A model generated the notes under the pieces. That model saw only the letters and a list, made by a program, of their open reading frames with translations, did no database searches and was not told the DNA's origin. Shown here in pieces: positions 22,114 to 37,173 of a DNA stretch of 64,000 bases. The position numbers were made by a program, and so were the translations under genes. Numbering within the stretch: position 1 is the first letter of the stretch; each line of letters starts with the position of its first letter. The DNA comes from Acidimicrobiaceae bacterium (GTDB taxonomy: Bacteria; Actinomycetota; Acidimicrobiia; Acidimicrobiales; Palsa-688), in NCBI GenBank assembly GCA_003166025.1, contig PMWT01000073.1, forward strand, positions 8,657 to 72,656, given 5' to 3'.

Positions 22114-22950
22114 ATGCCAGAGCTTGGTCCTGCCAGGTTACCGATTTGTCCCAAGGGCGTGTGGTTAGGCTCAGTAGCCGTGCCCGCTGAGACTTGCTCC
22201 GTCTCTGTCGTCGTGCCGACGCGCAACGAGGCCGCCAACGTCGGCCCCCTGGCGGCACGCCTGGCCGAGACGCTGAAGGATGTCGAGGGGGGCTGGGAGC
22301 TGCTTTTCGTCGACGACTCCGACGACCCCACCCCCGGCGCGGTGGGGAGCTTGAGACGCCTCGGGTTGCCGGTCGAGCTTCTGCACCGGCCCCCTGGCGC
22401 CCGCCACGGCGGCCTTGGCGGCGCCGTCCAGGAGGGGTTCGCCAGGGTGAGGGGCACGGTCATCGTGGTGATGGACGCCGACCTGCAGCACCCCCCCGAG
22501 GTCGTGCCGGCCCTGGTGGCACCGGTCCTGGCCGGTGAGGCGGCCCTGGTCGCCGGGAGCCGCTATGTCTGGGCGGGCGGGGACGCCGGGTTGTCAGGGC
22601 CATGGCGCCACCTGGTGTCCCGGTCGTGCCGCATGCTCGTCCATCTTCTCGTACCGCCCAGCCGGCCGTTGCAGGATCCTCTGAGCGGCCTGTTCGCCCT
22701 ACAAAGATCGCTTTTGGACGGGGTGGCCCTGCGGCCAGAGGGCTACAAGATCCTCTTGGAAGTGGTCGTGCGGGCGCGGCCGGAACGGGTCGGCAACGTC
22801 GGTTTCGACTTTGCCCCCCGCCATGCCGGGAGCTCGAAGGCGACCGTACGCCAGGGCATGCTGTTCTTCAAGCACCTCGCCCGCCTGGTCGTGGCCGGCC
22901 GGCGCGCCGGGCCGGGCCAACCCGTTGCCCAGGTGCCGTTGTCGTCCTAG
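22114..22950 (+). CDS. GT2 glycosyltransferase, polyprenyl-phosphate sugar synthase (DPM1/Ppm1)-like
   Basis: VSVVVPTRNEAANV, FVDDSDD, VVMDADLQHPP. The start is uncertain: only 17 nt separate ATG 22114 from the divergent gene, and in-frame GTGs lie downstream. Confidence 0.75.
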   Translation: MPELGPARLPICPKGVWLGSVAVPAETCSVSVVVPTRNEAANVGPLAARLAETLKDVEGGWELLFVDDSDDPTPGAVGSLRRLGLPVELLHRPPGARHGGLGGAVQEGFARVRGTVIVVMDADLQHPPEVVPALVAPVLAGEAALVAGSRYVWAGGDAGLSGPWRHLVSRSCRMLVHLLVPPSRPLQDPLSGLFALQRSLLDGVALRPEGYKILLEVVVRARPERVGNVGFDFAPRHAGSSKATVRQGMLFFKHLARLVVAGRRAGPGQPVAQVPLSS

Positions 22951-24497
22951 CTCTTGCGCTGGTACAGCACGTAATTAGCGTTGCGAGCCACGACCTTGAA
23001 CTCCGGCACCAGCTCGTCGAAGGTCTCCACCCAGGGAGAAGAACCCTGGTTGCAGGAGATGCAGGCGGGGAGCACGAGGTACTGCACCTGCGACGAAAAG
23101 GGCCAGTCCGTGCCGTCGTACTTGGGGTTGCCGTAGTACGCCTGGTGGAACGGGTTGGGCCACATGTACACCCGGGTGCGGTGGTCCAAATCGGGCACGA
23201 ACTCTTCCACGGCGGACACGACCGCATTGGGCGGCACTTTGCTGAGCAACTGGCGGTCGCTCACGAACGTCGGCGAATTGGCGCTGGGGATACTGGGTTT
23301 TACGTCGGAGAAAGGAGACGCGCCCCACAGGATGCACGACCAGAGCGCGCACAATAACACGAGCGAGGTTGCGACCTGTCGCCACCAGAGGGTGCGCAAC
23401 CGCGATATGGCGTAGACGGTGCCACAGATGAGTATGGGGACGAGCGGCATCGTGTAGTGGTAGAGGATCTGGTGCTGGTAACCGAAGTCCGACACCACGT
23501 TGACGGCCAGTTGGAGGATGCAGATGGCGGCGATCTCCGGCGCAGCCAGGAACACCAAGCCCGTGCTGAAACCCATCTGCCACAAGTACCACGGCCGGTC
23601 CTGGGAGGTTATGTAGCTCCAAAACTGGCCCGGCGTACGCACGATTGCCCGCAGAGTGCCCCCGAACCCGCCGAAGGGGAGCCGCCCCCCGTGGGCACTC
23701 GCGTAGCCGATGAGCGCCGGCACGAGGATGACGTTGTCGAAGCCCGCCATGAGCGCCGACGCTCCGATAAGGGCCCCGCCCACCTTGCGGTCCCGTCGCA
23801 AGAGGGCCCACAGCGCGAGAGGGACCGTGTACAGCGCCGCGTCCTCCTTGCACATGAGCACCAGGACGACGCAGAGGATGAACAGGCGCGGCCTCCATAC
23901 GACGGCGGCATAGATGCCCAAAGCCAGCAGCGGGGTCTCGAAGCACTCCACGTGGAACTGTTCGAGGTTGGTCTGTTGCAACGCCGGGTTGAGCAGGTAG
24001 GCCGCCGCCAGACAGGTGGCCAGGGCCCAACTACGCAGAAGGTAACGGGCGAGCAGGTAGACGGGCACTGCGCCCAGCGCGATGAGCACCGATTGGACCA
24101 CGAGCAACGTCTCGGTATGAGGGAACACCCAGTACACCGGGACCAGGAGCAGGTATATGAACGAAGGGTGGTCGCCGAAAAGGTTGCGGCCGGCCACGGT
24201 GAGAAAAGGGTCGTGGAACCGGCTCAGTAGCCAAATGCCCTGGTCCGGTATGGCCATATCGAAGGCGGGTTGTTCGTAGGCGTGCAGCATGGCGACCGTG
24301 ATGGCGCTGAAGTGTTCGGCGTAGGCCACGACCAGGGCCACCAGGGGGACGTGTTGCAACCAGGCCGGGGCGGGGCGCCTGGTCGAGGCCGGGCCGGCGT
24401 TGGACGCCGGCGCGGGCGGTCCGAGCGGGACAGGAGCGCCGTCATCGCCGGCCCGCTCGGCCGGGGCCACGACCTGGTGCCCGTCGCTGTCAAGCAT
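22947..24497 (-). CDS. DUF2079-like polytopic membrane protein (putative GT-C-type transferase)
   Basis: There are about 12 hydrophobic helices and a soluble C-terminal domain, with motif-level resemblance to DUF2079 (GDHPSFIYLLLVPVYW, ILYHYTMPLVP). Candidate starts are ATG 24497 and GTG 24533. The 3' end overlaps the convergent GT2 by 4 nt. Confidence 0.6.
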   Translation of the reverse strand: MLDSDGHQVVAPAERAGDDGAPVPLGPPAPASNAGPASTRRPAPAWLQHVPLVALVVAYAEHFSAITVAMLHAYEQPAFDMAIPDQGIWLLSRFHDPFLTVAGRNLFGDHPSFIYLLLVPVYWVFPHTETLLVVQSVLIALGAVPVYLLARYLLRSWALATCLAAAYLLNPALQQTNLEQFHVECFETPLLALGIYAAVVWRPRLFILCVVLVLMCKEDAALYTVPLALWALLRRDRKVGGALIGASALMAGFDNVILVPALIGYASAHGGRLPFGGFGGTLRAIVRTPGQFWSYITSQDRPWYLWQMGFSTGLVFLAAPEIAAICILQLAVNVVSDFGYQHQILYHYTMPLVPILICGTVYAISRLRTLWWRQVATSLVLLCALWSCILWGASPFSDVKPSIPSANSPTFVSDRQLLSKVPPNAVVSAVEEFVPDLDHRTRVYMWPNPFHQAYYGNPKYDGTDWPFSSQVQYLVLPACISCNQGSSPWVETFDELVPEFKVVARNANYVLYQRKS

Positions 24498-24566
24498 CCT
24501 CAACCACTTTACGGGCCCGGCCGGGGCCCCCACCGCCCGCCGAACCTACGTTCGAACAGGCTTCAG

Positions 24567-25352
24567 CTATGCGCGCTTGCCATGCCCGCCGCCCAGCGCC
24601 CGGTACAGCCAGGGCCAGCCACCGTGGAGCCGGGCCGCCAGGGCCAGCCACGCCGGTATGACCACGTCTTCCCGGCGCGTTTCGATGGCCCGCACGATGG
24701 CCTTGGCGACCGTGGCCGCGGGGATGGGCCGAGGCCAGGAATGCGTGTAGGGCCGGTTGCGGCGGAGGTAAAAGGGCGTGTCGACGGGACCGGGGCTGAC
24801 CAGGGTGACCGTCACCTGGTCGCTCGTCCACTCCGCCCTCAGGCTGTCGGCTAGTCCCTGCAGGCCGGCTTTGGCCGTGCTGTAAGCGACCTCTTCGGCC
24901 ACCCCGACCAGGCCGGCGATGGAGCCGACGAGCACGAGCTGGCCTCCGGTAACGCTTTTTCGGAGGTAGGGGGAGGCGGCGTGGGCCAGGTGCATGGGGG
25001 CCCGAAGGTTGATGTCGAGCAGAGCGTCGATCTCGGCCGGGGGCATCTGTTCGAAAAAGCCCAGCCATCCGGCGCCGGCATTGGAGACCACGACGTCGAG
25101 CCCGTCCAGCGTGGCCGCCGCTTGTTCGACAACGTCGGTAGGGGCGCCCGGCTCGATCAGGTCGCGGGCCACGGTGGCCTCGAAGTGGCCTGGCCCCGCC
25201 ACGACCACCCGGGCCAGTGCTGACGCGTCCCTTCCGGTGCCCACCACCCGGGCGCCGCGCTGGGCCAACAGCGAGCTCACGGCGGCGCCGATGCCGCTCG
25301 AGGCACCTGTGACGAGCACCCGGAGCCCGTCCAGCGGCCGGGAAGGGGGCAA
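24567..25352 (-). CDS. Classical short-chain dehydrogenase/reductase, last gene of the hopanoid operon
   Basis: TGASSGIG, NAGAG, YSTAKAG, and a Trp-rich C-terminal helix. TTG 25352 lies 4 nt after the hpnH stop. An alternative start is GTG 25319. Confidence 0.8.
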   Translation of the reverse strand: MPPSRPLDGLRVLVTGASSGIGAAVSSLLAQRGARVVGTGRDASALARVVVAGPGHFEATVARDLIEPGAPTDVVEQAAATLDGLDVVVSNAGAGWLGFFEQMPPAEIDALLDINLRAPMHLAHAASPYLRKSVTGGQLVLVGSIAGLVGVAEEVAYSTAKAGLQGLADSLRAEWTSDQVTVTLVSPGPVDTPFYLRRNRPYTHSWPRPIPAATVAKAIVRAIETRREDVVIPAWLALAARLHGGWPWLYRALGGGHGKRA

Positions 25353-25356
25353 TTGA

Positions 25357-26361
25357 TCAGCGGGCGTTTACAAGAGCGCGCAGGGACTGGCGCAAACTGC
25401 CCGTAGTGGCCAGGACGGCGCTGGGCTCGAACCCGCAATGGGCCATGCAATTGTGGCAGCGGGGGTCGCGGCCCCGGCCGTACTTGGACCAGTCGGTGGT
25501 CTCGATGAGCTCCTTGTACGTCTCGGTGTAACCGTCGGCCAGCAGGTAGCACGGCCGCTGCCAGCCGAAGACCGAGTAGGAGGGCACGCCCCAGGGGGTG
25601 CACTCGAACTCGACCTTTCCTTCCAGGAAGTCAAGGAAAAGTGGGCTGTGGTTAAGCCGCCAGTTTTTGCGCTTGCCCGCGAAGGCCTCCCTGAACAGCT
25701 TGGTCGACTGGTTGACGCCGAGGAAGTGCACCTGGTCCGGGGCTTTTTCGTAGGCGTACCCCGGAGAGATCATCATGGTGTCCACCTCGAGCTCGTCGTT
25801 CAGGAAGTCGAGCACCTCCTGCACCGTCTTGGGCGAGTCGGTGTCGAAAAAAGTCGTGTTGGTGGCGACGCGGAAGCCCTTTTCCTTGGCCGCCTTTATG
25901 GCGGCGACAGCCTTTTCGAAAACACCTTCCCGGCTGACGGACTCGTCGTGGCGCTCTTTCAGGCCATCGATGTGGATAACCCACGAAAAGGCGGGATGGG
26001 GCTTGAACCGGTCGAGCTTGCGTTCCAGCAGCAGGGCGTTGGTGCACAGGTAGACGAAGCGCTTGCGCTCGAGCAGGGCCTCGGTCATTTTCTCGATCTG
26101 GGGGTGCAGCAACGGCTCGCCCCCGGCGATCGACACCATGGGGGCCCCGCACTCCTCGATGGCGGCCACGGCCTGTTCGACCGAGAGGCGCTGGCGTAGT
26201 ACGTCGGTCGGGTACTGGATCTTGCCGCAACCATTGCACTCGAGGTTGCAGGCGAACAGCGGTTCGAGCTCGACGATGAGGGGGAACTTTTCCCGGCCAG
26301 CCAGTTTCTGGCGGGCGATATAACTGCCCACCTTGACGCTTTGGCGCAAAGGCACACCCAT
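25357..26361 (-). CDS. hpnH: Hopanoid radical-SAM protein HpnH (adenosylhopane synthase)
   Basis: The radical-SAM motif CNLECNGCG is present, with full-length resemblance to HpnH (KFPLIVELEPLFACN...GWQRPCYLL...RCHNCMAHCGFE). The ATG directly abuts the upstream TAA. Confidence 0.88.
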   Translation of the reverse strand: MGVPLRQSVKVGSYIARQKLAGREKFPLIVELEPLFACNLECNGCGKIQYPTDVLRQRLSVEQAVAAIEECGAPMVSIAGGEPLLHPQIEKMTEALLERKRFVYLCTNALLLERKLDRFKPHPAFSWVIHIDGLKERHDESVSREGVFEKAVAAIKAAKEKGFRVATNTTFFDTDSPKTVQEVLDFLNDELEVDTMMISPGYAYEKAPDQVHFLGVNQSTKLFREAFAGKRKNWRLNHSPLFLDFLEGKVEFECTPWGVPSYSVFGWQRPCYLLADGYTETYKELIETTDWSKYGRGRDPRCHNCMAHCGFEPSAVLATTGSLRQSLRALVNAR

Positions 26362-27909
26362 TTATCGGACCTCCGGAGGAAGGGGAAAGGACACGTTCTC
26401 ATGGCCGGTCGAGCGCTCCTCGATGGATATGGAGCCCAGCCCGGCCAGGCAATCGACGACTTGCTGTACGAGCTCGGGGGGTGCCGACGCGCCCGCCGTC
26501 ACACCCACGCGGCGCGCCCCGGCGAGCCAGGAGAGGCGCAGGTCCGCCTGGTTGTCGACCAGATGGGCGCGGGCCCCACAACGTCTGGCGACCTCGACCA
26601 AGCGGTTGGAATTGGACGAGTTGTGCGAGCCCACAACGATGACGACGTCGCAGTCAGGAGCCATTTCCCGCACCGCTTCTTGACGGTTTTGGCTGGCGTA
26701 ACAGATGTCCGACGCCGCCGGCCGGGCGAGGTCGGTGAAGTGCTGCTCGAGCGCGCCGACCACCGTCTTCACTTCGTCGGTGGCGAGCGTGGTCTGGGTC
26801 ACGAAAGCGGTGGGCTTGGTCGCGTCGAGCTCGAGGTGATCGACGTCATCGGGGACGCTGACCAGTTTTGTGCCCGGTACGATGCCCATTGTCCCTTCGA
26901 CCTCATCGTGCCCAGCATGGCCGATGAGGACGAGTTGGCGGCCGGCCGCGGCGAAACGACGGGCCTCGTTGTGGACTTTGGTCACGAGGGGGCACGTGGC
27001 GTCGATGGTGGGCATCTGGCGCCGCCTCGCCTCGTCGTGGACGCTGTTGCCCACCCCGTGGGCGGAGAACACGACTCGGGCCCCGTCGGGCACTTCCGCC
27101 AGTTCCTCCACGAACACGGCGCCGGCGGATTCCAGGCGGGAGACAACGTGCGCATTGTGGACTATTTGGCGGCGCACGTAGATAGGCGCGCCGTAGCGCT
27201 GCAGAGCCCGCTCGACCGTCTCGATGGCGCGCTCCACTCCGGCGCAGAACGACCTCGGTTCGGCCAGCAGTACCTGCCTCGGCCCGGCCGCCGCCGCCCA
27301 GTCGGCCAGCGCTCGCCGGCAGCGGCGCAGGCTGTGCAGCCCCTTGAGGGCGCCCACGACGCCGGCGGGGGAGAACAGCTCGGCGCCCGGCGAGTCGGAC
27401 ACAGCCCTCAGCACGGCTAGGGGCGCCCCCCAGTCGGCCCCGGCCAGGGCGGTCGACTCCATGTCCACGACATCGGCGCCCAGGGCCGCCAGCGCGGCCC
27501 GTTGGCTCCCGCTGACGAGGTGGCCGGTGCTCAGCACCGCCCCCGTGCGGGCGCGCAGGCCGTCCCTCACCAGCTCGCCGACGAGCAGCGGAGCAGAGGC
27601 CAACCGGGCCACCTCGCGGCCCTGGTCGTCGAGGAGGCGGTCGGCCACCACCACGTCGCCCGGCACCAGGCCCGGTGCCAGCGCACCCCCGAGGCCGGCC
27701 ACCACCACGGCGGCAGGGGGGCCCGGTACGGCGCTCAAACGTCGTGCCGACGCACCGGCCCGGGCCAGGCCCATGCCCGTTCGCTCGACGACCAGGTCCG
27801 CCGGCCCGACCTTGCCGCTCGGGCCGAGGGCCATGGCCTCGAGCCTCAGCGGCGCCAGGACCAACAGACGAGGGGCGCCGGCCGTTGTCACCCGGTTATG
27901 GCTTTGCAC
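26362..27909 (-). CDS. ispH: Fusion protein: HpnG-like PNP/UDP-family nucleosidase (N-terminal ~195 aa) plus IspH/LytB HMBPP reductase (C-terminal ~320 aa)
   Basis: N-terminal part: LLVLAPLRLEA, VVVAGLGGALAPGLVPGDVVVADRL, GADVVDMESTALA. C-terminal part: FCAGVERAIE, FSAHGV, DATCPLVTKVH, GHAGHDEVEGT, GSHNSSNSNRL. Candidate starts are GTG 27909 and GTG 27891. Confidence 0.8.
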   Translation of the reverse strand: MQSHNRVTTAGAPRLLVLAPLRLEAMALGPSGKVGPADLVVERTGMGLARAGASARRLSAVPGPPAAVVVAGLGGALAPGLVPGDVVVADRLLDDQGREVARLASAPLLVGELVRDGLRARTGAVLSTGHLVSGSQRAALAALGADVVDMESTALAGADWGAPLAVLRAVSDSPGAELFSPAGVVGALKGLHSLRRCRRALADWAAAAGPRQVLLAEPRSFCAGVERAIETVERALQRYGAPIYVRRQIVHNAHVVSRLESAGAVFVEELAEVPDGARVVFSAHGVGNSVHDEARRRQMPTIDATCPLVTKVHNEARRFAAAGRQLVLIGHAGHDEVEGTMGIVPGTKLVSVPDDVDHLELDATKPTAFVTQTTLATDEVKTVVGALEQHFTDLARPAASDICYASQNRQEAVREMAPDCDVVIVVGSHNSSNSNRLVEVARRCGARAHLVDNQADLRLSWLAGARRVGVTAGASAPPELVQQVVDCLAGLGSISIEERSTGHENVSFPLPPEVR

Positions 27910-29887
27910 CCTTGGGGCGGGGGCCCGTACCTAAGTGGTAGCGGCCCAGCGCAGTGAGCGGGAAGACGTGGCGGTAAAGGTGGTAGTTCAGGGAAAAGTC
28001 CCACGGGAACCCGGTGCCGGTGAACCAGGGCTCGTCCCAGGTCCCGTCGGGGGTCTGGTTGCCCACGAGCCACTCGACACCGTTTTTGGTGGCCGGGTTT
28101 TCTCGTTCCCCGGCCGCCAGGAGGCCGAGCAGCGCCCAGGCGGTCTGGGAAGCGGTGGACGCCCCCCGGCCGTGCCAGCCCGGCTCGACGTAGGAGCGCA
28201 GGTCCTCGCCCCAGCCTCCGTCGGGGTTCTGGTGTTCGGTCAACCACCGCGCCCCGTCCGCCACTCGGGGATCTTTGGCCGGTACGCCGGCGGCGACGAG
28301 GGCCGGTAGGACCGCGCCCGTGCCGTATATGTAGTTGACGCCCCAGCGTCCCCAGTAGGAGCCGTCGGGCTCCTGGTGCCCTCCCAGCCAGTCGAGGCCC
28401 TTCTGCATGGCTTCGCGCCATTCCGGCGGCCTGTTCTCGACCGCCAGCATCTCGGCCGCCAGCATCTCGACCACGTGGGCGGTGACGTCCGCCGTCGGCG
28501 GGTCGGTGACGACCCCGAAGTCGAAGAACGGCAGCTGGGTAGGCAGCTCGGAGGTGTTGTCGGCGTCGAAGGCGGCCCAGCCCCCGTCCTTGCACTGCAT
28601 GCCGACGAGCCAGTTGACGGCGCGACGGCAGGCGCCCTCCCCGTCGGGGCCGCCGGCCCCCCGGCGCAGGGCGATGACGACTTCAGCGGTGTCGTCGATG
28701 TCGGGGTAATGGACGTTCTGGAACTCGAAAGCCCAGCCGCCGGGTGCCAGCCCCGGCCTCCTGACTGACCAGTCGCCGACGACGGTCACTTCTCTTTGCA
28801 CGAGCCAGTCCCGGGCCATCTTGATGGACGGGTCATCGTGGGCCGTACCCGCGTCCAATAGGGCGGTTACGGCCAGAGCGGTGTCCCAGACAGGGGACTG
28901 GCACGCCTCGATGCGCCGGCCGGACTCGTCGTCTACGGCGAAGGCGTCGAGGCCACGCAAAGCGGCGGCGATGACCGGGTGGTCGAGGGGATAGCCCTGC
29001 AGGACCAAGGCGATCGTGGAGTAGACCATCGGCGGCTGGATCCCGCCCCAGGAACCGTCCGCCTCCTGGCGGGCCACGATCCAGCGCTCGGCCTCGCGTA
29101 GGGCGGCACCCCTGATCACGCGCTTGGGCCACCACTGGTCGGAAAGTGACTCGTAGTAGTGAAGGGCCTTGTCGAGCGCCACCAGGGCCACGCCCAGGGC
29201 GTTCAAGCGCCGGCCCCGGGGTTGTTTGCCTGATTTGAGCTCTTCGATCTCGAACGGGAGCGGGTGCGCCGGCCGGTGCGCCGATATGACCGACAGGGCG
29301 ACGATCGTCTGGCGGGCCCAACAGGCGAAAGACCAGATGGACAGGGGCCAGTCCGAAGGTAGGAACACCAGCTCGGGCGGGATGGCGGGCAGCTTTTGCC
29401 AGTCCCAGCGGCCCACCATGGCCAGCCAGACATGGGTGAACATCCGGGCTGACTCGACACCACCGTGCCGGCGGGCCCACGCCGCCGCCTTGGCCATGTG
29501 CGGCTGGTCGGGGTCGTCACCGGCGAGGCGGAGGGCGACGTACGCCTCAATGGTGGCCGAAAGCTCGCCCGGGCCCCCGTAGAAGGTTGTCCAGGGCCCG
29601 TCCGGCCGTTGTTGCGACCGGATGCGGCCGGCGGCGGCGCCGACGATGTCGTCGTCCAGGATCCCGAGGAAATGACGCAGCAGGACGTCCTCGGCGTCCA
29701 TGGTGACGTTGGTCTCGAGTTCGCCCTTCCACCAGCCGTCGGGTTCCTGGCGGTCCTTCAGGTGGGCACTGGCCAGGGCGATGGCCTCGGCCACGCTCCT
29801 TTCGACCACCAGGGGATCTGTCTCGGTCACGCTGATGTCGGACGAGGTGCTCTCGTCTTCGCCGGGGGCACGGGCGAGCAGCGTCAT
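27896..29887 (-). CDS. shc: Squalene-hopene cyclase
   Basis: QW-type repeats are present (DGGWG, DGSWGG, DGWWKG), along with a DDTAEV catalytic motif and GWAFEF. ATG 29887 overlaps the upstream stop (ATGA). Confidence 0.92.
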   Translation of the reverse strand: MTLLARAPGEDESTSSDISVTETDPLVVERSVAEAIALASAHLKDRQEPDGWWKGELETNVTMDAEDVLLRHFLGILDDDIVGAAAGRIRSQQRPDGPWTTFYGGPGELSATIEAYVALRLAGDDPDQPHMAKAAAWARRHGGVESARMFTHVWLAMVGRWDWQKLPAIPPELVFLPSDWPLSIWSFACWARQTIVALSVISAHRPAHPLPFEIEELKSGKQPRGRRLNALGVALVALDKALHYYESLSDQWWPKRVIRGAALREAERWIVARQEADGSWGGIQPPMVYSTIALVLQGYPLDHPVIAAALRGLDAFAVDDESGRRIEACQSPVWDTALAVTALLDAGTAHDDPSIKMARDWLVQREVTVVGDWSVRRPGLAPGGWAFEFQNVHYPDIDDTAEVVIALRRGAGGPDGEGACRRAVNWLVGMQCKDGGWAAFDADNTSELPTQLPFFDFGVVTDPPTADVTAHVVEMLAAEMLAVENRPPEWREAMQKGLDWLGGHQEPDGSYWGRWGVNYIYGTGAVLPALVAAGVPAKDPRVADGARWLTEHQNPDGGWGEDLRSYVEPGWHGRGASTASQTAWALLGLLAAGERENPATKNGVEWLVGNQTPDGTWDEPWFTGTGFPWDFSLNYHLYRHVFPLTALGRYHLGTGPRPKGAKP

Positions 29888-31083
29888 GACTCGCGCTCCA
29901 CTGCGTAGACGGCCAGGTCGGCCAGTGCCCGTCGGGGCACGGCCGATAGGCGGGCCCGTTCGAGCGAGCCGAGGGCGGCGTCGAGGTGGGCCTTGGCCCG
30001 GGCGGCCGTCCATTCCCGGCCACCGCACGCCTCCACCAGCCACGTCGCCCGAGCCAGGTCCTCCGGGCTCAGGTACCGCAGCGGTGCCGGTGACCAGTCG
30101 GGGGTGGCCACCGTGACCTGGTCCGCCATGAGCATGGCACCGTTGTGGTGCCCGGCCCTCGGCTCCCGGCCATCAGGTATGGCCTCGCCCAGAATGATCC
30201 CGCCCGGGACAACTTCGCCCGAGATGGCGGGGCCCGAGATGGCGGGACCTGGTCTGGTGTCGAACAGCAGGCTCTCGAGTTCCCGGGCACCGTCGTCGCC
30301 GGCAGCCAGGGCGGCAACTATGGGCATCGACTTCTTCCGCTGGCGGATGTCGTTGCCGGCCGGCTTGCCCGTCGTCCGCGGGTCTCCCCATATCCCCAGC
30401 AGGTCGTCGACGGCCTGGAAGGCCACGCCCAGATGACGGCCGAAGTCCCGGAGGGCATACACCGTGGCCGGTGGTGCATCGGCCAGGACGGCCCCGATCG
30501 ACGCTGCGCACCCGAGCAGCGCGCCCGTCTTCGCCGTCGACATGGCCATGCACTCCTCGACACTGACCGAACGCCGTTTTTCGAACGCCAGGTCGTCGGC
30601 CTGGCCCGCGATCATCTCCGCGGTGGCCTCGCCGAGGGCCGCGGCGGCGGCCGCCCCGGCCGCGTTAGGGCTGCGGAGCAGGACATCGGTAGCCAGCGTG
30701 GCCAGGGCGTCCCCGACCAACAGGGCCACACAGGGGCCCCACAACGCCCAGACGGTAGGGCGGTGACGGCGCTCGATGTCGCCGTCCATCAGGTCGTCAT
30801 GCACGAGCGAAAAGTTGTGCACGAGCTCTATCGCCACCCCGCCGGGCGCCCCGACCTCGGCGCCGGCCCAGGTCGCCTCGGCCGACAGGACGGCCAGGGC
30901 GGCCCGGATCCCCTTGCCCCCGCGGGCTGGGGACGGCGTCCCGTCGGCCTCTGTCCAGCCCAGGTGGTAGCTCACCACTCCCGAGATGTTGGGAGACAGA
31001 CGTCCGACGGCGTCGCGCATAAGTGGCTGAGTCAGATCGCGTGCCCGTTCGAGCACTTCTACAACTGACGTGGTCGGCGTCAC
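29884..31083 (-). CDS. Polyprenyl diphosphate synthase (hopanoid-cluster FPP-synthase type)
   Basis: It has the first DDxxD motif (LVHDDLMD) and the second (FQAVDDLLG), followed by KPAGNDIRQRKKS. GTG 31083 overlaps the hpnE stop (GTGA). It contains an in-frame 15-bp duplication (GPAISGPAIS). Confidence 0.85.
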   Translation of the reverse strand: MTPTTSVVEVLERARDLTQPLMRDAVGRLSPNISGVVSYHLGWTEADGTPSPARGGKGIRAALAVLSAEATWAGAEVGAPGGVAIELVHNFSLVHDDLMDGDIERRHRPTVWALWGPCVALLVGDALATLATDVLLRSPNAAGAAAAAALGEATAEMIAGQADDLAFEKRRSVSVEECMAMSTAKTGALLGCAASIGAVLADAPPATVYALRDFGRHLGVAFQAVDDLLGIWGDPRTTGKPAGNDIRQRKKSMPIVAALAAGDDGARELESLLFDTRPGPAISGPAISGEVVPGGIILGEAIPDGREPRAGHHNGAMLMADQVTVATPDWSPAPLRYLSPEDLARATWLVEACGGREWTAARAKAHLDAALGSLERARLSAVPRRALADLAVYAVERES

Positions 31084-32711
31084 GTAACCTCCTGGAGCTG
31101 TTCAGGCTGTGGCCGGGCCCCCACCGCCGAGGGGGCTGTTGGCAACGGGCTGTTCGGGGACCGGGTGCTTGACAAATCGGTGTTCGACATATTCCTGTTC
31201 AACAGGGTGCCCGACAAATAGGCCCGGGGCAAAGACGCGCGACGCCCGGTGGCCGCCAGCACGGTGCGAGCGGCCGCCAGTCCGCTGCGGACAGCCCCTT
31301 CCATGGTCGGGGGCCAGCCCGTCGCCGTCCAGGCGCCCGCCACTGCGAGCCCGGGAGCCCGGGTACGGGCCGGGGCACGGTGCTGTGCGGAGCCCGGGGA
31401 CGCCCGGAAAGTGGCGTTGTGCTCACGGGTGACGAGGGTTTTCAGGACCTTCGCCTCCCGAGCCGCGGGGAAAAGGGCGCCTAGGGCTTCCACCATGTCG
31501 CTGCCGAGGTCCAAAGGGCGCGCCCCGATGTAATCGTCGGCGCCGGATATAGAGACGGCCAGGTACTGGCCCTGCCCAGCCCCCGAGGAGACAGTGCGGT
31601 CGAAAATCCACTGGGCCGGCGAGTCGAGGGCCGCGGCCAGACGAAGGTCGGTGACGCGGCGGTCGAAATGGACGTGCACGTTGACTATGGGCGAGCTGCC
31701 CAGCTCTGATGGCCGTATGCCGTCGGGCAGAGCGCCCGAAGGCAGCACGTCCTCGATCAGGTAGTGGGGGAGGGCCACGATGACGCCGTCGGCGGGCAGC
31801 TCCCCCTGGGAGGTGTGGACGACGAAGCGAGGGGTGCCCGCGACGCCGTCGGTGACCTCGCTCACGGGCCGGACCGCCGTGACCGCGTCCGACAGGTGCA
31901 CCTCCACGCCCGCCTTTCGTAGCGCGAGGGCTCCCTTTTCGCCGTGGAGGGCGCCCAGGGGCACGCGGCTCCAGCCGATGTCCCCGGCGCGACTGTCGGT
32001 CAGCAGTCCCGTTTGGAAGACCTTGGCCGCCATGGCCAAGGAGGCCCGGCGAGCCGGCAGGTTGACAGTGGGCAGGCAGATGAGGTCCCACAACGCCGAA
32101 ATGACGACCTCGCTCTGACCGTGCGCGCGCAGCCATTCCTCGAAGGTCTGCTGGTCCAGGGCGGGGTCGTCGAGGTCGAGGTGGGCGAGAGCGAGCGCGG
32201 CGGGGCCGAAGCGGGCCCGGTCGGCCCACGAGATCAGGCCGTAGCGCAGCAGCGATCGGGCCAGGTGCAGTGGGGCAGGCACTCGGTCTCGGCTCAGGCG
32301 GGCCGCGTCGACGCCGGCTGGCGGCACCCAGCTCCCGGGCCCGCCCGGGCGGCTCGGCCCGGCCCGGAGCACGGTGACGTCGAGGCGCTCCTGGAGCTCC
32401 ACGTCGCCGGCCGAGCCTATTCGGCCCAGGAAGTCGAGGTAGGCGGTGCAGCAGCGCAAGAAGACGTGCTGGCCGTTGTCGACCTGGAGGCCGTCGTGGG
32501 TGAACGACCATGTCAGCCCGCCCAGCCGGGAGCGCTTCTCCAGGAGCGTGACCCCGGCCCCGGCGTCCGCACAAGCGAGGGCGGCGGAGATCCCTGCCAG
32601 CCCGCCGCCGACGACGACGACGTGGGGCTGGCTGTCTGGGGCTCGGGCGCCTGGCGCCCCGCCGGCGCCAGGCCCGGGCTGTACGGCCAGTCCGGCTCCC
32701 GGGGCGCTCAT
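31080..32711 (-). CDS. hpnE: FAD-dependent hydroxysqualene dehydroxylase, HpnE-like (phytoene desaturase family)
   Basis: The dinucleotide fold is VVVVGGGLAGISAALACADAGAGVTLLEKRSRLGG. ATG 32711 overlaps the hpnD stop (ATGA). The ORF-track 5' extension lies in the upstream gene. Confidence 0.8.
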   Translation of the reverse strand: MSAPGAGLAVQPGPGAGGAPGARAPDSQPHVVVVGGGLAGISAALACADAGAGVTLLEKRSRLGGLTWSFTHDGLQVDNGQHVFLRCCTAYLDFLGRIGSAGDVELQERLDVTVLRAGPSRPGGPGSWVPPAGVDAARLSRDRVPAPLHLARSLLRYGLISWADRARFGPAALALAHLDLDDPALDQQTFEEWLRAHGQSEVVISALWDLICLPTVNLPARRASLAMAAKVFQTGLLTDSRAGDIGWSRVPLGALHGEKGALALRKAGVEVHLSDAVTAVRPVSEVTDGVAGTPRFVVHTSQGELPADGVIVALPHYLIEDVLPSGALPDGIRPSELGSSPIVNVHVHFDRRVTDLRLAAALDSPAQWIFDRTVSSGAGQGQYLAVSISGADDYIGARPLDLGSDMVEALGALFPAAREAKVLKTLVTREHNATFRASPGSAQHRAPARTRAPGLAVAGAWTATGWPPTMEGAVRSGLAAARTVLAATGRRASLPRAYLSGTLLNRNMSNTDLSSTRSPNSPLPTAPSAVGARPQPEQLQEVT

Positions 32712-33601
32712 GCCGTACCCGTTGTCATGGCCCGGGCCGCCACGACCAGCTTCTCGGCCGAGGACAGGCCGAGCCGCCCGTGGAGCACGGCCTCGGGGTC
32801 GACCCGGATCTTGTCCAGGAGCCGGCGGTATATCCCTGTCATGGCCGCGGTGCAGGCCCGGCTGCGTTTGTCCAGCAGGGGTAGCAGGGCCATCCCCCGC
32901 TCGTACCATTCGGCGGCCCGGCCTGTCTCGAAGCAGATGAGGGCCACGAGGTCGTCGCGCCGCCCCGTAAGGGCGGCGTCCACGCCGAAGCGGGCCAAGT
33001 CTTCGCTCGGCAGGTAAACCCGGCCCATCACGTCACGGTCCTCGATCAGGTCTCGCAGTATGTTCGTGAGCTGCAACCCTACGCCCAGGGCGTCCGCCAG
33101 GGGTTCGGCCGCCGGCCCGTCGCTGCTGCCGTAGACGGCCAGCGACAGGCGGCCGATCGTACCGGCTACCCGGCGACAGTACTCGACGAGCTCGGAGAAG
33201 CTCCCGTACCTCCGGCCGGCGATGTCCCACTCGCACCCCTCCACCAGGTCCAGGAAGGCGCCGATCGGTACCGGGAACTGCCGGGCCGTGTCGGCCAGCG
33301 CGGTCAGGACGGGGTCGCCCGGGGGGGCGGCGACCGCCGGGGTACCTTCGCCGGTCGCCTTGGCCAGCAACTCGAGCGACGTCCGTACCTCCTGCAGGGC
33401 ATGGAGCCTGTTGTCGGCCGCGCCAGCAGCACCGGGCCCGTCGCCGATGTCGTCGATGCGCCGGGCCATGGCGTAGAGGGCGCACATGGCAGAACGCTGG
33501 CGGGGCGGGAGCAGCCGGATCCCGTAATAGAAGTTCCGCGCTCGCGACCGGGTTATCCTCTCGCACTGCTTGTAGGCGAGGGCAACGGCGGCCGCGTTCA
33601 A
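32708..33601 (-). CDS. hpnD: Presqualene diphosphate synthase, HpnD-like (squalene/phytoene synthase family)
   Basis: SRARNFYYGIRLLP, YAMARRIDDIGD, NILRDLIEDRDVMGRVYLP. The start is TTG 33601, preceded by GGAGGAG, and it overlaps the hpnC stop (TTGA). Confidence 0.8.
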   Translation of the reverse strand: MNAAAVALAYKQCERITRSRARNFYYGIRLLPPRQRSAMCALYAMARRIDDIGDGPGAAGAADNRLHALQEVRTSLELLAKATGEGTPAVAAPPGDPVLTALADTARQFPVPIGAFLDLVEGCEWDIAGRRYGSFSELVEYCRRVAGTIGRLSLAVYGSSDGPAAEPLADALGVGLQLTNILRDLIEDRDVMGRVYLPSEDLARFGVDAALTGRRDDLVALICFETGRAAEWYERGMALLPLLDKRSRACTAAMTGIYRRLLDKIRVDPEAVLHGRLGLSSAEKLVVAARAMTTGTA

Positions 33602-34602
33602 ATTGTCTCCTCCCGCGTCCCGGCCCCGGGCCGGGCCGACCGGTAGGCATTCTGGAGCAGACGGGCCAGATGGGGCCCGAAGCGTCCGATCGTGGGCCGG
33701 GAGGGCTCGGCATAAATGTCGAAGTCGACGGCAGCCAGGCCGTCCAGGGCGGCGTGGCCACCGGCCGTGAAACTGGCGACCGCAATGCGGAGGCGGCCTT
33801 TGAGGCTGGCCACCAGGGGGCTCCCGTCGTCGAGCATCCGCCGTGCCCGGGCTACTTCGAAGGCCAGAAGGGCGCGGCAGGCCGGGCTCGCACCGCCGGC
33901 GGCGCCTCGCCGGCGACGGTCGACGTACCCGGCGGACGGGGGGACCAGCTCTTCGACGCTGACCCCGAAGCGTCTCATGTCTTCTAACGGCAGGTAGACC
34001 CGCCCGACGATGGCGTCCTCGGCCACGTCCTGCCAGTGCTCGACCAGTTGCAGAGCGGTACAGGTGCTGTCGGACCAGGTGTTGCGTTGCGGTGTGGCCA
34101 CGCCGAAGATGCCGAGCACCATGCGCCCGACCGGGTTGGCGGAGAGCCGGCAATAGCCGACCAGGTCCGCGAAGGTCTCATAACGAGAGACGACCTGGTC
34201 CTGGCGGTTGGCCTGGACCAGGTCGAAGAGAGGCTCCGTGGGCAGGTCGAGCCGGTGTACCGTTTCGGCCATCCTCTTGACCAGGGGGTGTACGTCGTCG
34301 TCCGGCCTGGGGCCGTCGGGGGAGCCCCCCTGTCCCGGCCCGGGGCCGAGGGCGAGCCGGAGCTGGTGCTCGACTTCGTCGAGGGCGGCCATACGGTCAC
34401 CGGCGTAGTCGTCGCCGATCTGGTCCACGAGCCGGGCCCAGCCGTAAAGAGCCATGAGGTCGGACCGCACAGCCGCCGGCAGCAGCCGCGAGGCGACAGG
34501 GAAGTTCTCGGTGCCGGCGCGGCCGAGGACGACGTACTCAGGAGGCAGGTCCGATTTGGCGCGAGCGGCCCGGGACGGTGCACGCATCGCCGCTGCCGTC
34601 AT
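33598..34602 (-). CDS. hpnC: Hydroxysqualene synthase, HpnC-like (squalene/phytoene synthase family)
   Basis: ENFPVASRLLP, YGWARLVDQIGDD, WQDVAEDAIVGRVYLP. It is the first gene of the operon, with an AGAGGGGA RBS. Confidence 0.8.
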   Translation of the reverse strand: MTAAAMRAPSRAARAKSDLPPEYVVLGRAGTENFPVASRLLPAAVRSDLMALYGWARLVDQIGDDYAGDRMAALDEVEHQLRLALGPGPGQGGSPDGPRPDDDVHPLVKRMAETVHRLDLPTEPLFDLVQANRQDQVVSRYETFADLVGYCRLSANPVGRMVLGIFGVATPQRNTWSDSTCTALQLVEHWQDVAEDAIVGRVYLPLEDMRRFGVSVEELVPPSAGYVDRRRRGAAGGASPACRALLAFEVARARRMLDDGSPLVASLKGRLRIAVASFTAGGHAALDGLAAVDFDIYAEPSRPTIGRFGPHLARLLQNAYRSARPGAGTREETI

Positions 34603-34793: not shown

Positions 34794-35639
34794 TCAGGGC
34801 GATGCCGGCCGTAGTGCCCAATCGGGCCCGACGGCCCACTGGAGCACGGTGGCGAACGCCGTCTCGATGACCTCGAGCCCGGCCGGGACCGGGTCGTCGG
34901 ACAACGGTCGCCCGGCTGCCTCCGCCAGGGTACGCAGGACCCGAGCAGCGAGGATCTGGCTGGGGAAGTCACCTCGGGCCGCCCGCGCGCCCAGTTCCAA
35001 GAGGATGGGCATGGCCCGGGTGATGAGCCGACCGAAGACGACTGCGGTCTTGCCCGGGTCGTGAGCCAGGCCCTCAGGGCCCCCGAGCTCGGCGACCGCT
35101 TGGGCGAAGCGCTCGGCGGTGTCCTGGCAGAGGCTCTCCACTACGGCGGTGAAAAGGGCCTCCTTGGAGGGGAAATGCCGGTAAACGGTCCCCTTGGCCA
35201 CACCTGCCGTGGCCGCGATCTCGCTTACGGTGACTGCAGCGTAGCCCTTGGGTTCGGAGAACAATTTGAACGCTGCGTCGACCAGGCGTTTCTGGGGTTC
35301 TTCGCTGCAGTCGGGCGTGGCCGGCGGCAGCGGGTGGCGGCCGTCCATGAGGTCGGGCAGGACCGCTTTGATCTGGCCCAGGCCCATGGCCCGTTCCTCG
35401 CGAAGCTCCCGGATGAGCTGCAGCGCGTGCAGGTGGACCTCGGAGTACACGTAGCGGCCCGGGCGGGTCAGCTCCGGCTCGGGCAGGAGGCCCAGGCGAC
35501 GGTAGTGGTGCACGGTGCTCGGGGGAACGCCGGATAGGGCGACGAGCCGGCCGAGCGAGATCGGCTCGCCGGCGCGACTACCAGGGCCGGCCCGGTCCGG
35601 GCCGCCTTGGCGGGCTGGTTGGGTTGCTCCTGAGGCCAT
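34794..35639 (-). CDS. Dual-HTH transcription regulator: MerR-type N-terminal HTH fused to a TetR-family regulator
   Basis: MerR-like part: ISLGRLVALSGVPPSTVHHYRRLGLLPEP...YVYSEVHLHALQLIRELRE. TetR-like part: RLVDAAFKLFSEPKGYAAVTVSEIAATAGVAKGTVYRHFPSKEALF. I prefer ATG 35639 over the ORF-track TTG 35675. Confidence 0.75.
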   Translation of the reverse strand: MASGATQPARQGGPDRAGPGSRAGEPISLGRLVALSGVPPSTVHHYRRLGLLPEPELTRPGRYVYSEVHLHALQLIRELREERAMGLGQIKAVLPDLMDGRHPLPPATPDCSEEPQKRLVDAAFKLFSEPKGYAAVTVSEIAATAGVAKGTVYRHFPSKEALFTAVVESLCQDTAERFAQAVAELGGPEGLAHDPGKTAVVFGRLITRAMPILLELGARAARGDFPSQILAARVLRTLAEAAGRPLSDDPVPAGLEVIETAFATVLQWAVGPDWALRPASP

Positions 35640-35687
35640 AGGCACCGTCCGTGCGGTTCTGCCACCCAGATTCAAGCACGGCCGCGC

Positions 35688-37121: not shown

Positions 37122-37173
37122 GGTGCAACCGCCTTTTGGCCCGCCACCTCGGGGGTGGGCGGGCCGCACCGCG

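What the first reader, a model, noticed from the sequence alone, without database searches (positions are those of the whole stretch)
24567..25352. A classical SDR coupled directly behind hpnH may be the unassigned ribosylhopane reductase
Seen in the sequence: the hpnH stop (25357-25359) is followed 4 nt later by a same-strand 261-aa ORF (TTG 25352, alternative GTG 25319). It carries classical SDR motifs (TGASSGIG, NAG, YSTAK). Its Trp-rich amphipathic C-terminus (PAWLALAARLHGGWPWLYRAL) would suit a membrane-lipid substrate. It is the last gene of the tightly packed run hpnC-hpnD-hpnE-prenyl synthase-shc-hpnG::ispH-hpnH.

Established knowledge: HpnH makes adenosylhopane and HpnG removes adenine to give ribosylhopane. 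The NAD(P)H-dependent reduction of ribosylhopane to bacteriohopanetetrol has been observed biochemically. To my knowledge no gene has been assigned to that step. HpnA is an extended, epimerase-like SDR and is a different type. No hpnO-type aminotransferase is visible in this window.

Inference: this SDR is a candidate for the missing reductase.
Basis: partly seen in the sequence, partly recalled or inferred. Interest (0 to 1): 0.8.

Follow-up and report, generated by a model that had tools for sequence, protein, structure and literature searches.

The report
Hopanoid-linked SDR, candidate ribosylhopane reductase
A small NADPH-type reductase gene sits directly behind the hopanoid side-chain genes in this Acidimicrobiales genome, and its relatives sit next to hopanoid genes in several different arrangements, which makes it a testable but unproven candidate for the missing enzyme that makes bacteriohopanetetrol.

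Summary
Window 24567-25352(-) encodes a 261-aa classical SDR that starts 4 nt after hpnH. It follows hpnC-hpnD-hpnE-prenyl synthase-shc-hpnG::ispH-hpnH.

A motif-based metagenome scan gave 56 non-redundant family members. 21 lie directly downstream of hpnH, 10 lie tail-to-tail with hpnH in a different lineage, and 7 lie directly downstream of hpnJ-hpnR. Most of the other 18 are on contigs too short to judge.

A glycosyltransferase is a recurrent partner of the family: GT28-like, GT1, or the pair DUF2079 plus GT2.

The protein is 11beta-HSD1-like. It has an intact N-S-Y-K tetrad and an invariant NADP-type arginine.

Reviews from 2025 and 2026 still list ribosylhopane to BHT as unassigned, and databases call this protein only "SDR family oxidoreductase".

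A role in C35 hopanoid tailoring is well supported (about 0.75). The specific reaction, reduction of the C-35 aldehyde of ribosylhopane, is the most parsimonious reading but is untested (about 0.4).

The family was seen only in Actinomycetota, and some members are unlinked to hopanoid genes. It is therefore not the universal reductase.

The parts
24567..25352 (-). Classical SDR, 261 aa, TTG start (alternative GTG at 25319): the hopanoid-linked SDR
   Evidence: ORF and translation. Pfam adh_short 4e-41. No NCBIfam equivalog reaches its cut-off. N-terminal conservation favours the TTG start.
25287..25310 (-). Gly-rich dinucleotide-binding motif TGASSGIG (residues 15-22)
   Evidence: Invariant in alignments A1 and A3.
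25230..25232 (-). Arg41, directly after strand beta2 (GTGR). This is the NADP(H)-type position and aligns with Arg66 of human 11beta-HSD1.
   Evidence: Invariant G-R in 40 aligned family members. BLASTP alignment to 11beta-HSD1. The cofactor preference itself is inferred.
24870..25010 (-). Catalytic tetrad Asn115, Ser144, Tyr157, Lys161
   Evidence: Positions. Invariant columns.
24594..24776 (-). Family-specific substrate loop and C-terminal region (PF[FY]xRRNRPYxxSWPRP ... PxWLxxxARLxGGxPxLY), residues 193-253
   Evidence: Conserved in A1, A2 and A3. The PDB profile matches printed in full (best two) stop near profile position 197, and listed matches reach at most about 223. This region was used as the search pattern.
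25357..26361 (-). hpnH, adenosylhopane synthase (radical SAM + DUF3463)
   Evidence: TIGR03470 522 bits against a cut-off of 225. Pfam.
26362..27909 (-). hpnG-like nucleoside phosphorylase domain fused to IspH/LytB
   Evidence: PNP_UDP_1 at residues 32-175 plus LYTB at 213-488. HpnG TIGR03468 scores 58 bits, below its cut-off; the IspH models score about 400 bits.
27896..30043 (-). shc, squalene-hopene cyclase (true start probably downstream of the ORF's first start codon)
   Evidence: TIGR01507 714 bits.
29884..31083 (-). Polyprenyl diphosphate synthase
   Evidence: Pfam polyprenyl_synt 1e-51.
31080..32909 (-). hpnE, hydroxysqualene dehydroxylase
   Evidence: TIGR03467 370 bits against a cut-off of 283.
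32708..33601 (-). hpnD-like presqualene diphosphate synthase. The ORF runs on to 34153, but the domain starts at residue 202.
   Evidence: TIGR03465 257 bits against a cut-off of 279; Pfam SQS_PSY.
33598..34602 (-). hpnC, squalene synthase
   Evidence: TIGR03464 274 bits against a cut-off of 250.
34794..35675 (-). MerR_1 + TetR_N fusion regulator upstream of hpnC
   Evidence: Pfam. Same gene in the same position in L001, L002 and L004-6.
22947..24533 (-). DUF2079 membrane protein, same strand, directly after the SDR. It is a possible further member of the transcription unit.
   Evidence: Pfam DUF2079 2e-51. Conserved downstream of the SDR in many clade-A loci. No terminator-like site in between.
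22114..22950 (+). GT2 glycosyltransferase (polyprenyl-phosphate sugar synthase-like), convergent with the DUF2079 gene
   Evidence: Pfam Glycos_transf_2. Weak NCBIfam hits to ArnC, AglJ and PpgS-type enzymes. Co-conserved with DUF2079.

Best explanation
The gene encodes a soluble or peripheral, 11beta-HSD1-like classical SDR. It most likely uses NADPH and belongs to a previously undescribed SDR family of Actinomycetota that is genomically tied to C35 (extended) hopanoid biosynthesis.

In this Acidimicrobiales operon each gene accounts for one step. HpnC, HpnD and HpnE make squalene, Shc makes diploptene, HpnH makes adenosylhopane, and the HpnG domain removes adenine to give ribosylhopane. The SDR fits the one step that has no gene. 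It would reduce the C-35 aldehyde of open-chain ribosylhopane to the primary alcohol of bacteriohopanetetrol (BHT). That alcohol is the position that hopanoid glycosyltransferases then use.

**Shown here:** gene, motifs, fold class, conserved linkage.

**Inferred:** cofactor, substrate, reaction, direction.

I put a role in C35 hopanoid tailoring at about 0.75. The confidence given below is for the specific reaction.
For: 1. **Tight coupling.** The gene starts 4 nt behind hpnH, with no terminator-like site.
2. **Unbiased scan by the family's C-terminal motif.** Of 56 clusters at 90% identity, 21 are co-directional directly after hpnH, 10 are convergent with hpnH in a lineage whose HpnH is only 67-72% identical, and 7 lie directly after hpnJ-hpnR. 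These two genes scored 769 bits (TIGR03471) and 847 bits (TIGR04367), both above their cut-offs. Only one cluster with at least 1.2 kb on both sides shows no hopanoid gene.
3. **The hpnH-SDR pair persists while the downstream flank changes.** Neighbours include DUF2079 in either orientation, His_Phos_1 and others.
4. **Recurrent partners use or need a lipid alcohol.** These are a GT28/MGDG-synthase-like GT, a GT1, a polysaccharide deacetylase (analogous to HpnI/HpnK), HpnJ and WS/DGAT. Locus L124 carries hpnH followed by the SDR, together with the GT28 and deacetylase module that accompanies the SDR in Streptomyces.
5. **Enzyme features.** The N115-S144-Y157-K161 tetrad is intact. G40-R41 after beta2 is invariant and aligns with R66 of NADP-dependent 11beta-HSD1.
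6. **Structure.** The AF2 model has pLDDT 85. The best PDB fold matches are 11beta-HSD1 (TM 0.83), a reductase of a polycyclic lipid carbonyl. The NADPH-dependent clavaldehyde reductase 2jah is also among the top hits.
[quoted passage not shown] A cell-free reduction has been published (Bodlenner 2015, cited); its NADPH dependence is from my own knowledge.
8. **No competing aminotransferase.** No hpnO-type gene was found in the window.
Against: - There is no biochemical or genetic datum, so guilt by association cannot name the reaction.
- The family was seen only in Actinomycetota. The activity was measured in Methylobacterium, and alphaproteobacterial hpn clusters show no comparable candidate. 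At best this is a lineage-specific solution.
- Some members are clearly not next to hopanoid genes: L133/L136, L172/173, L176/177, L007-L009 and L170. I could not check whether those genomes make hopanoids.
- Aldehyde reduction could be done by unspecific reductases.
- HpnG is a phosphorylase-type enzyme, so the true intermediate may be phosphorylated and not directly reducible.
- Linked loci are related by descent. SDR and HpnH identities correlate with rho 0.89, so the number of independent events is about 3-5, not 38.
Confidence: 0.4

Rival explanations
1. The SDR acts in extended-hopanoid tailoring but on a different step. Options are:
- reduction of a 2'-keto intermediate in a DprE1/DprE2-like epimerisation of the ribosyl or polyol side chain, giving C-34 epimers of BHT;
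- oxidation of the ribosylhopane lactol to the lactone (ribonylhopane);
- a redox step in the glycoside or cyclitol-ether branch, working with the glycosyltransferase, the deacetylase and HpnJ.
For: - The same linkage data apply.
- In clade B the gene sits with hpnJ, hpnR and a GT rather than with hpnH.
- In L167-169 it is divergent from a GT1 plus a DAO-type FAD oxidoreductase, with a PQQ-type sugar dehydrogenase next to hpnH. That is the kind of oxidase partner an epimerisation would need.
- In Streptomyces it lies with a GT, a deacetylase and a DMT transporter, and no hpn gene.
- Ribonylhopane has been reported in mutants.
Against: - In the window's clade the SDR stands alone with hpnH and hpnG. 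There is no oxidase partner, and no hpnJ in 64 kb.
- An NADP-type classical SDR usually works as a reductase.
- In Proteobacteria, genetics assign the cyclitol branch to hpnI, hpnJ and hpnK only.
- No DprE2 model appears among the 25 best NCBIfam hits, the only ones shown.
Confidence: 0.3
2. It is a broader lipid carbonyl reductase that is co-regulated with hopanoid genes as part of membrane remodelling, not a hopanoid enzyme. Possible substrates are fatty aldehydes, prenyl aldehydes or ketones.
For: - Some members are unlinked to hopanoid genes.
- A WS/DGAT wax-ester-type acyltransferase lies directly upstream in L145/146.
- A DMT transporter and MGDG-synthase-like GTs also suit ordinary glycolipid pathways.
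- Farnesol dehydrogenase is among the PDB sequence hits.
Against: Adjacency is specifically to hpnH, or to hpnJ/hpnR, in at least three arrangements, and it survives turnover of all other neighbours. In L124 the GT and deacetylase module is itself attached to the hpn cluster.
Confidence: 0.2
3. There is no functional connection. The SDR is a passenger gene whose position next to hpnH is inherited synteny within one bacterial lineage.
For: Most linked loci come from related high-GC Actinomycetota. SDR and HpnH divergence track each other (rho 0.89), as expected for vertical co-inheritance.
Against: - There are two different orientations relative to hpnH, and a third arrangement behind hpnJ-hpnR.
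- The pair is conserved at HpnH identities down to 67% while flanking genes change.
- Spacing is 4 nt with no terminator.
Confidence: 0.07

Closest known systems
11beta-hydroxysteroid dehydrogenase type 1-like classical SDRs (human HSD11B1; NCBIfam PRK06181-type bacterial SDRs)
   Same: - Best fold match: TM 0.83, rmsd about 2 A over about 235 residues.
- 31% identity over 250 residues, including the C-terminal extension.
- Same N-S-Y-K tetrad and same Arg after beta2, which binds the 2'-phosphate of NADP in 11beta-HSD1.
- It is a carbonyl reductase for a polycyclic lipid.
- PRK06181 is the best NCBIfam hit.
   Different: - No N-terminal membrane anchor; the most hydrophobic stretch is the core strand.
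- Its own conserved substrate-loop and C-terminal motif (RRNRPY..SWPRP, PxWL..ARLxGG.P.LY).
- The score of 139 bits is far below the PRK06181 cut-off of 215.
- Hopanoid gene context.
HpnA (TIGR03466, hopanoid-associated sugar epimerase)
   Same: It is a Rossmann-fold NAD(P) enzyme found inside hpn clusters with no assigned reaction. It could conceivably be the proteobacterial counterpart; this is an untested idea.
   Different: HpnA is an extended, epimerase-type SDR. The window protein is a classical SDR: Pfam Epimerase scores only 20.0 bits against a cut-off of 20.9, and no HpnA model is among its 25 best NCBIfam hits, the only ones shown.
Clavaldehyde (clavulanate) dehydrogenase CAD of Streptomyces clavuligerus (PDB 2jah)
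   Same: It is a classical SDR that reduces an aldehyde to a primary alcohol as the last step of a pathway; its NADPH dependence is from my own knowledge. It is among the best PDB hits by sequence profile (4e-32) and by fold, with 30% identity.
   Different: Its substrate is small and soluble. It lacks the family's C-terminal motif, and the match is to the generic core only.
DprE2 (decaprenylphosphoryl-2-keto-ribose reductase of mycobacteria)
   Same: It is a classical SDR of about 250 aa that acts on a lipid-linked ribose (own knowledge). It is the model for the epimerisation rival.
   Different: DprE2 works with the FAD oxidase DprE1. No such partner is present in the window, and no DprE2 model is among the 25 best NCBIfam hits, the only ones shown.
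HpnO (aminotransferase that makes aminobacteriohopanetriol)
   Same: It would use the same intermediate, the aldehyde form of ribosylhopane. In Streptomyces hopanoid clusters it is a terminal tailoring gene (cluster layout from own knowledge).
   Different: It is a PLP transaminase, an unrelated fold. It is absent from this window.

Membership tests
Classical short-chain dehydrogenase/reductase (Pfam PF00106 adh_short) | Profile score above the curated cut-off; length about 250 aa | tested here: met
   141 bits against a cut-off of 26.6, over residues 12-194; the protein is 261 aa.
Classical short-chain dehydrogenase/reductase (Pfam PF00106 adh_short) | TGxxxGxG cofactor motif, NNAG-type motif, catalytic Asn-Ser-Tyr-Lys | tested here: met
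   TGASSGIG at 15-22; SNAGAG at 90-95; N115, S144, Y157, K161. Invariant in 40 relatives.
NADP(H)-preferring classical SDR (type cP2 in the Kallberg/Persson scheme) | A basic residue directly after strand beta2, and no acidic residue at the preceding key position | tested here: met
   G40-R41 is invariant. R41 aligns with R66 of 11beta-HSD1. Actual cofactor use is not testable here.
Any curated NCBIfam SDR equivalog (for example PRK06181, FabG, 3-hydroxybutyrate dehydrogenase) | Whole-protein score at or above the model's cut-off | tested here: not met
   The best is PRK06181 at 139 bits against 215. None of the 25 best of 212 hits reaches its cut-off; the other 187 hits were not displayed.
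HpnA (hopanoid-associated extended SDR, TIGR03466) | Extended or epimerase-type SDR architecture and a match to the HpnA model | tested here: not met
   Pfam Epimerase scores 20.0 bits, below its cut-off. No HpnA model appears among the 25 best NCBIfam hits, the only ones shown.
Hopanoid-linked SDR family of Actinomycetota (defined here) | Conserved loop and C-terminal signature: VSPG.V.T.F, RRN.PY..(S/R)(W/F)P, P.W(L/M)...(A)R(L/F).G..P.(L)Y | tested here: met
   Window residues 185-253. Invariant columns in A1, A2 and A3.
Hopanoid-linked SDR family of Actinomycetota (defined here) | Neighbourhood with C35 hopanoid genes (hpnH/hpnG or hpnJ/hpnR) | tested here: met
   In the window the gene starts 4 nt after hpnH. 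In the family, 38 of 56 clusters are linked and 17 of the rest have short flanks. The linkage is not universal.
Ribosylhopane reductase (the activity described by Bodlenner et al. 2015; no gene known) | NAD(P)H-dependent conversion of ribosylhopane to bacteriohopanetetrol | not testable with these tools
   This needs an enzyme assay or in vivo reconstitution.
Ribosylhopane reductase (the activity described by Bodlenner et al. 2015; no gene known) | Presence in all BHT producers, including Methylobacterium and other Proteobacteria | tested here: inconclusive
   The genome scan returned only generic SDRs (36% identity or less) from Methylobacterium and Bradyrhizobium, none near hpn genes, but the scan was saturated. 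The literature reports no candidate near alphaproteobacterial hpn clusters.

The most novel reading that the evidence does not exclude
This SDR family is the long-sought BHT-forming ribosylhopane reductase of Actinomycetota. It would be the entry point of an undescribed actinobacterial route from ribosylhopane to BHT glycosides and cyclitol ethers. The later steps would use a GT28-like or GT1 glycosyltransferase, a polysaccharide-deacetylase-type enzyme and HpnJ (in this genome perhaps DUF2079 plus GT2) in place of the proteobacterial HpnI and HpnK.
Probability: 0.35. Interest if true: 0.75.

Novelty: new member of a known kind. Interest (0 to 1): 0.62.

Why it matters
Bacteriohopanepolyols are major membrane lipids and the source of the geohopane biomarker record. 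The step that turns ribosylhopane into BHT, the parent of most extended hopanoids, has had no gene since the intermediate was found, and 2025-2026 reviews still say so.

A concrete candidate would make that question directly testable with one co-expression experiment or one enzyme assay. This candidate is cheap to synthesise and has strong comparative-genomic backing.

It would also improve prediction of which uncultured Actinomycetota make BHT-type lipids. A recent survey describes some of them as stopping at ribosylhopane.

It points as well to further unassigned hopanoid tailoring genes: GT28-like and GT1 glycosyltransferases, a deacetylase, a DMT transporter and DUF2079.

Tried and rejected
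- **Genome scan with the full-length alignment.** It returned only generic SDRs at 45% identity or less, none near hpn genes.
- **PDB search by sequence profile.** It gave only generic SDR core matches.
- **Amphipathic membrane helix at the C-terminus.** The hydrophobic moment is unremarkable and there is no transmembrane segment.
- **Apparent 795-aa WS/DGAT-SDR fusion in L145.** Rejected: the two genes are in different frames and are merely adjacent.
- **"Clade B is unlinked to hopanoids."** Rejected after its upstream genes scored as HpnJ and HpnR.
- **HpnA membership.** Rejected.
- **Search of the window for hpnO-like, hpnJ and hpnR genes.** Negative.
- **Promoter and terminator scan.** It showed only chance-level intragenic matches.
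- **DUF2079.** No PDB relative, no paper and no weak GT-C Pfam hit, so its role stays open.
- **Literature searches for an SDR assigned to hopanoid or BHT synthesis.** They found nothing.
- **Liu et al. 2014 (PMC4245026).** The paper is not held in the library.
Full report
**1. Observation**

The ORF at 24567-25352 on the minus strand is real. It has 261 codons from a TTG. The hpnH stop codon TGA lies at 25357-25359, and four bases (tcaa) separate it from the TTG. An in-frame GTG lies at 25319.

- TGASSGIG at residues 15-22
- NAGAG at 91-95
- YSTAK at 157-161
- PAWLALAARLHGGWPWLYRAL at 233-253

Pfam adh_short matches at 4e-41.

The upstream run on the same strand is confirmed with curated models:
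- hpnC: TIGR03464, 274 bits
- an hpnD-like gene: 257 bits, just under its cut-off
- hpnE: 370 bits
- a polyprenyl synthase
- shc: 714 bits
- a fusion of an HpnG-like PNP domain with IspH
- hpnH: TIGR03470, 522 bits

Three details need correction.
- The TTG start is preferable to the GTG. The residues before the GTG (xRxLxGLRVLVTG) are conserved in homologues down to 58% identity. Public gene calls are split between 250 and 261 aa.
- A same-strand DUF2079 membrane-protein ORF can begin 33 nt after the SDR stop. No terminator-like site lies between hpnH, the SDR and this gene. The SDR is therefore not certainly the last gene of the unit.
- The C-terminal segment is Trp-rich but only weakly amphipathic, and the protein has no transmembrane stretch.

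**2. What kind of protein it is**

It is a classical SDR with the full catalytic tetrad N115, S144, Y157 and K161. No curated NCBIfam equivalog among the 25 best hits shown reaches its cut-off. The best is PRK06181 at 139 bits against 215. Public databases call it only [quoted passage not shown].

G40-R41, directly after strand beta2, is invariant in 40 aligned relatives. In the Kallberg/Persson scheme this is the NADP(H)-preferring type. The cofactor preference is an inference.

An AlphaFold model built on 20 sequences has mean pLDDT 85. Its best PDB fold matches are 11beta-HSD1 structures (TM 0.83, rmsd about 2 A). A Streptomyces avermitilis SDR and clavaldehyde dehydrogenase are also among the top 50.

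In a sequence-profile search of the PDB, the two matches printed in full stop near profile position 197, and the listed best stretches reach at most about 223. The substrate loop and C-terminal 60 residues form a family signature that is highly conserved: PFFxRRNRPYxRSWPRP ... PxWLxxxARLxGGxPxLY.

**3. The linkage test**

The first homology search gave 120 listed relatives at 50% identity or more. Look-ups at 88%, 70% and 59% identity all showed the same hpn operon with the SDR directly after hpnH. In the 59% case the downstream flank was completely different.

A genome-collection scan with the full-length alignment was saturated by the generic Gly motif and gave only unrelated SDRs.

A metagenome scan seeded with the family-specific C-terminal region gave 80 loci, chosen without regard to context. 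Comparing them with the window's Hpn proteins, a neighbour-joining tree and family searches on neighbours gave this picture:
- **Clade A** contains the window. The SDR is co-directional, 4 to about 190 nt after hpnH, in every locus with enough upstream sequence to check except the short contig L099.
- **L118 and L124** have the same arrangement, with HpnH only 74-76% identical.
- **Clade C**, together with L145/146, has the SDR tail-to-tail with hpnH (HpnH 67-72% identical). One or two genes sometimes lie in between: a PQQ-type sugar dehydrogenase, or DUF2330 plus a methyltransferase.
- **Clade B** first looked unlinked. There the SDR lies 15-100 nt after hpnR, in the order GT28-like glycosyltransferase, HpnJ (769 bits against a cut-off of 578), HpnR (847 against 650), SDR, a VC0807-family membrane protein, and a DMT transporter.

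After clustering at 90% identity there are 56 clusters:

| Context | Clusters |
|---|---|
| Co-directional after hpnH | 21 |
| Convergent with hpnH | 10 |
| After hpnJ/hpnR | 7 |
| No hopanoid gene seen | 18 |

Of the 18 with no hopanoid gene, 17 have less than 1.2 kb of sequence on at least one side.

Clear unlinked cases do exist:
- L133/136 and L172/173, which lie behind a DsbH-like gene near heme genes
- L176/177
- L009
- some Streptomyces loci

The linked loci are not independent. SDR and HpnH identities to the window correlate with rho 0.89. The honest count is three to five independent arrangements, not 38 events.

**4. Recurrent partners**

Besides hpn genes, the SDR keeps company with enzymes that use a lipid hydroxyl:
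- a GT28/MGDG-synthase-like GT in clade B, L124, L137 and Streptomyces
- a GT1 divergent from the SDR in L161-169
- a polysaccharide deacetylase in Streptomyces L170/L008 and in L124
- a WS/DGAT acyltransferase directly upstream in L145/146
- in the window's clade, DUF2079 plus a polyprenyl-phosphate-sugar-synthase-like GT2

L124 is a useful bridge. It carries hpnH followed by the SDR, and 2.5-3.5 kb further on it has homologues of the GT28 and deacetylase genes that accompany the SDR in Streptomyces.

In Proteobacteria, BHT is glycosylated at C-35 by HpnI, deacetylated by HpnK and rearranged by HpnJ. The actinobacterial GT, deacetylase and HpnJ look like a functional counterpart. This is an inference.

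**5. Most likely mechanism**

The operon encodes, one gene per step, the route from farnesyl diphosphate to ribosylhopane. The one downstream step without a gene is reduction of the open-chain C-35 aldehyde to the primary alcohol of BHT.

A stand-alone, NADP-type, 11beta-HSD1-like reductase that is translationally coupled to hpnH fits that step. Its relatives travel with hpnH/hpnG on one side and with BHT-consuming enzymes on the other. The alcohol it would create is the very position that the partner glycosyltransferases need.

I rate involvement in C35 hopanoid tailoring at about 0.75 and this particular reaction at about 0.4.

**6. Rivals**

- **Another redox step on the side chain or head group (0.3).** Options are a DprE2-like keto reduction giving C-34 epimers, lactol-to-lactone oxidation, or a step in the cyclitol branch. 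The DAO and PQQ dehydrogenase neighbours in L167-169 and the hpnJ linkage in clade B speak for it. The lone SDR in the window's operon and the absence of hpnJ in 64 kb speak against it.
- **A general lipid-aldehyde reductase co-regulated with hopanoids (0.2).** It is supported by the unlinked members and the WS/DGAT neighbour.
- **Mere inherited synteny (0.07).** It is contradicted by the different arrangements and by flank turnover.

**7. Comparison with what is known, and novelty**

The step is still open. [quoted passage not shown] A 2026 review depicts it as non-enzymatic. A 2025 preprint states that some Actinomycetota seem to reach ribosylhopane but lack downstream enzymes.

Full-text searches for an SDR assigned to hopanoid or BHT synthesis found nothing.

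The protein is an ordinary member of a very well-known superfamily. What is new is the hopanoid-linked family and the proposed role.

It is not HpnA, which is an extended SDR. It was not seen outside Actinomycetota, and alphaproteobacterial hpn clusters offer no comparable candidate.

**8. Limits**

- There is no experiment.
- There was no whole-genome access, so I could not ask whether unlinked members sit in hopanoid producers, or how many actinobacterial hpnH loci lack the SDR.
- The genome-collection scan was wasted on a generic motif.
- The tree is a simple neighbour-joining tree.
- Gene starts in these 70% GC contigs are uncertain.
- The NADPH dependence of the published cell-free activity, the S. 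coelicolor cluster layout and the properties of DprE2 are from my own knowledge.

Noticed in passing
window 22114-24533: A DUF2079 membrane protein lies on the same strand, 33 to about 190 nt after the SDR. A convergent GT2, resembling a polyprenyl-phosphate sugar synthase, faces it. The pair follows the SDR in at least 11 related loci. DUF2079 has no PDB relative, no paper and no weak GT-C Pfam hit. It may be a lipid-linked-sugar glycosylation system tied to the hopanoid operon.
   Followed up: partly
window 34794-35675 (-): A regulator that fuses MerR_1 and TetR_N DNA-binding domains sits just upstream of hpnC. It is conserved in the same position in L001, L002 and L004-6.
   Followed up: partly
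window 35688-37232 (-): An aldehyde dehydrogenase (Pfam Aldedh 6e-85) lies immediately beyond the regulator. A 30%-identical Aldedh also lies near the SDR, GT1 and DAO genes in L167-169. A link to an aldehyde intermediate of the side chain was not examined.
   Followed up: no
L150 5273-12263 (also L151, L152, L157, L165, L166, L171): These high-GC contigs, probably actinobacterial, carry in order a GT28-like glycosyltransferase, HpnJ, HpnR, the SDR, a VC0807-family membrane protein and a DMT transporter. HpnJ and HpnR both score above their curated cut-offs. A recent survey says Actinomycetota lack enzymes for downstream C35 modification.
   Followed up: partly
L170 10001-13721; L008 9884-14005: In Streptomyces the family member heads a module of SDR, DMT-type transporter, polysaccharide deacetylase and MGDG-synthase-like GT, with no hpn gene within 10 kb. 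Homologues of the same GT and deacetylase lie 2.5-3.5 kb after hpnH and the SDR in L124.
   Followed up: partly
L145 1524-3907; L146: A WS/DGAT (wax ester synthase/acyltransferase) gene ends about 20 nt before the SDR, and the pair is convergent with hpnH. At first it looked like a fusion, but the two genes are in different frames.
   Followed up: yes
L168 10736-12124; L169; L167: A PQQ-type glucose/sorbosone dehydrogenase (GSDH) lies between hpnH and the convergent SDR. A DAO-type FAD oxidoreductase and a GT1 lie on the other side of the SDR. These could be partners for an oxidation and reduction (epimerisation) of the side chain.
   Followed up: no
L004-L006 11031-11474: A small histidine-phosphatase-family gene (His_Phos_1) is convergent directly after the SDR. 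This is of interest because HpnG is a phosphorylase-type enzyme whose expected product, phosphoribosylhopane, has never been observed.
   Followed up: no
P0035, P0045, P0077, P0089 (alignment A1, columns about 180-265): Some orthologues carry low-complexity insertions of 20-60 residues between helix alphaF and strand beta6. The window protein has none.
   Followed up: no
window 26362-27909 and all related loci: The HpnG-like phosphorylase domain is fused to IspH in the window and in most related clusters. It scores only 58 bits on the HpnG model (cut-off 187). L113, L124 and L145/146 showed no match to the fusion protein, and the gaps there would fit at most a short stand-alone gene.
   Followed up: partly
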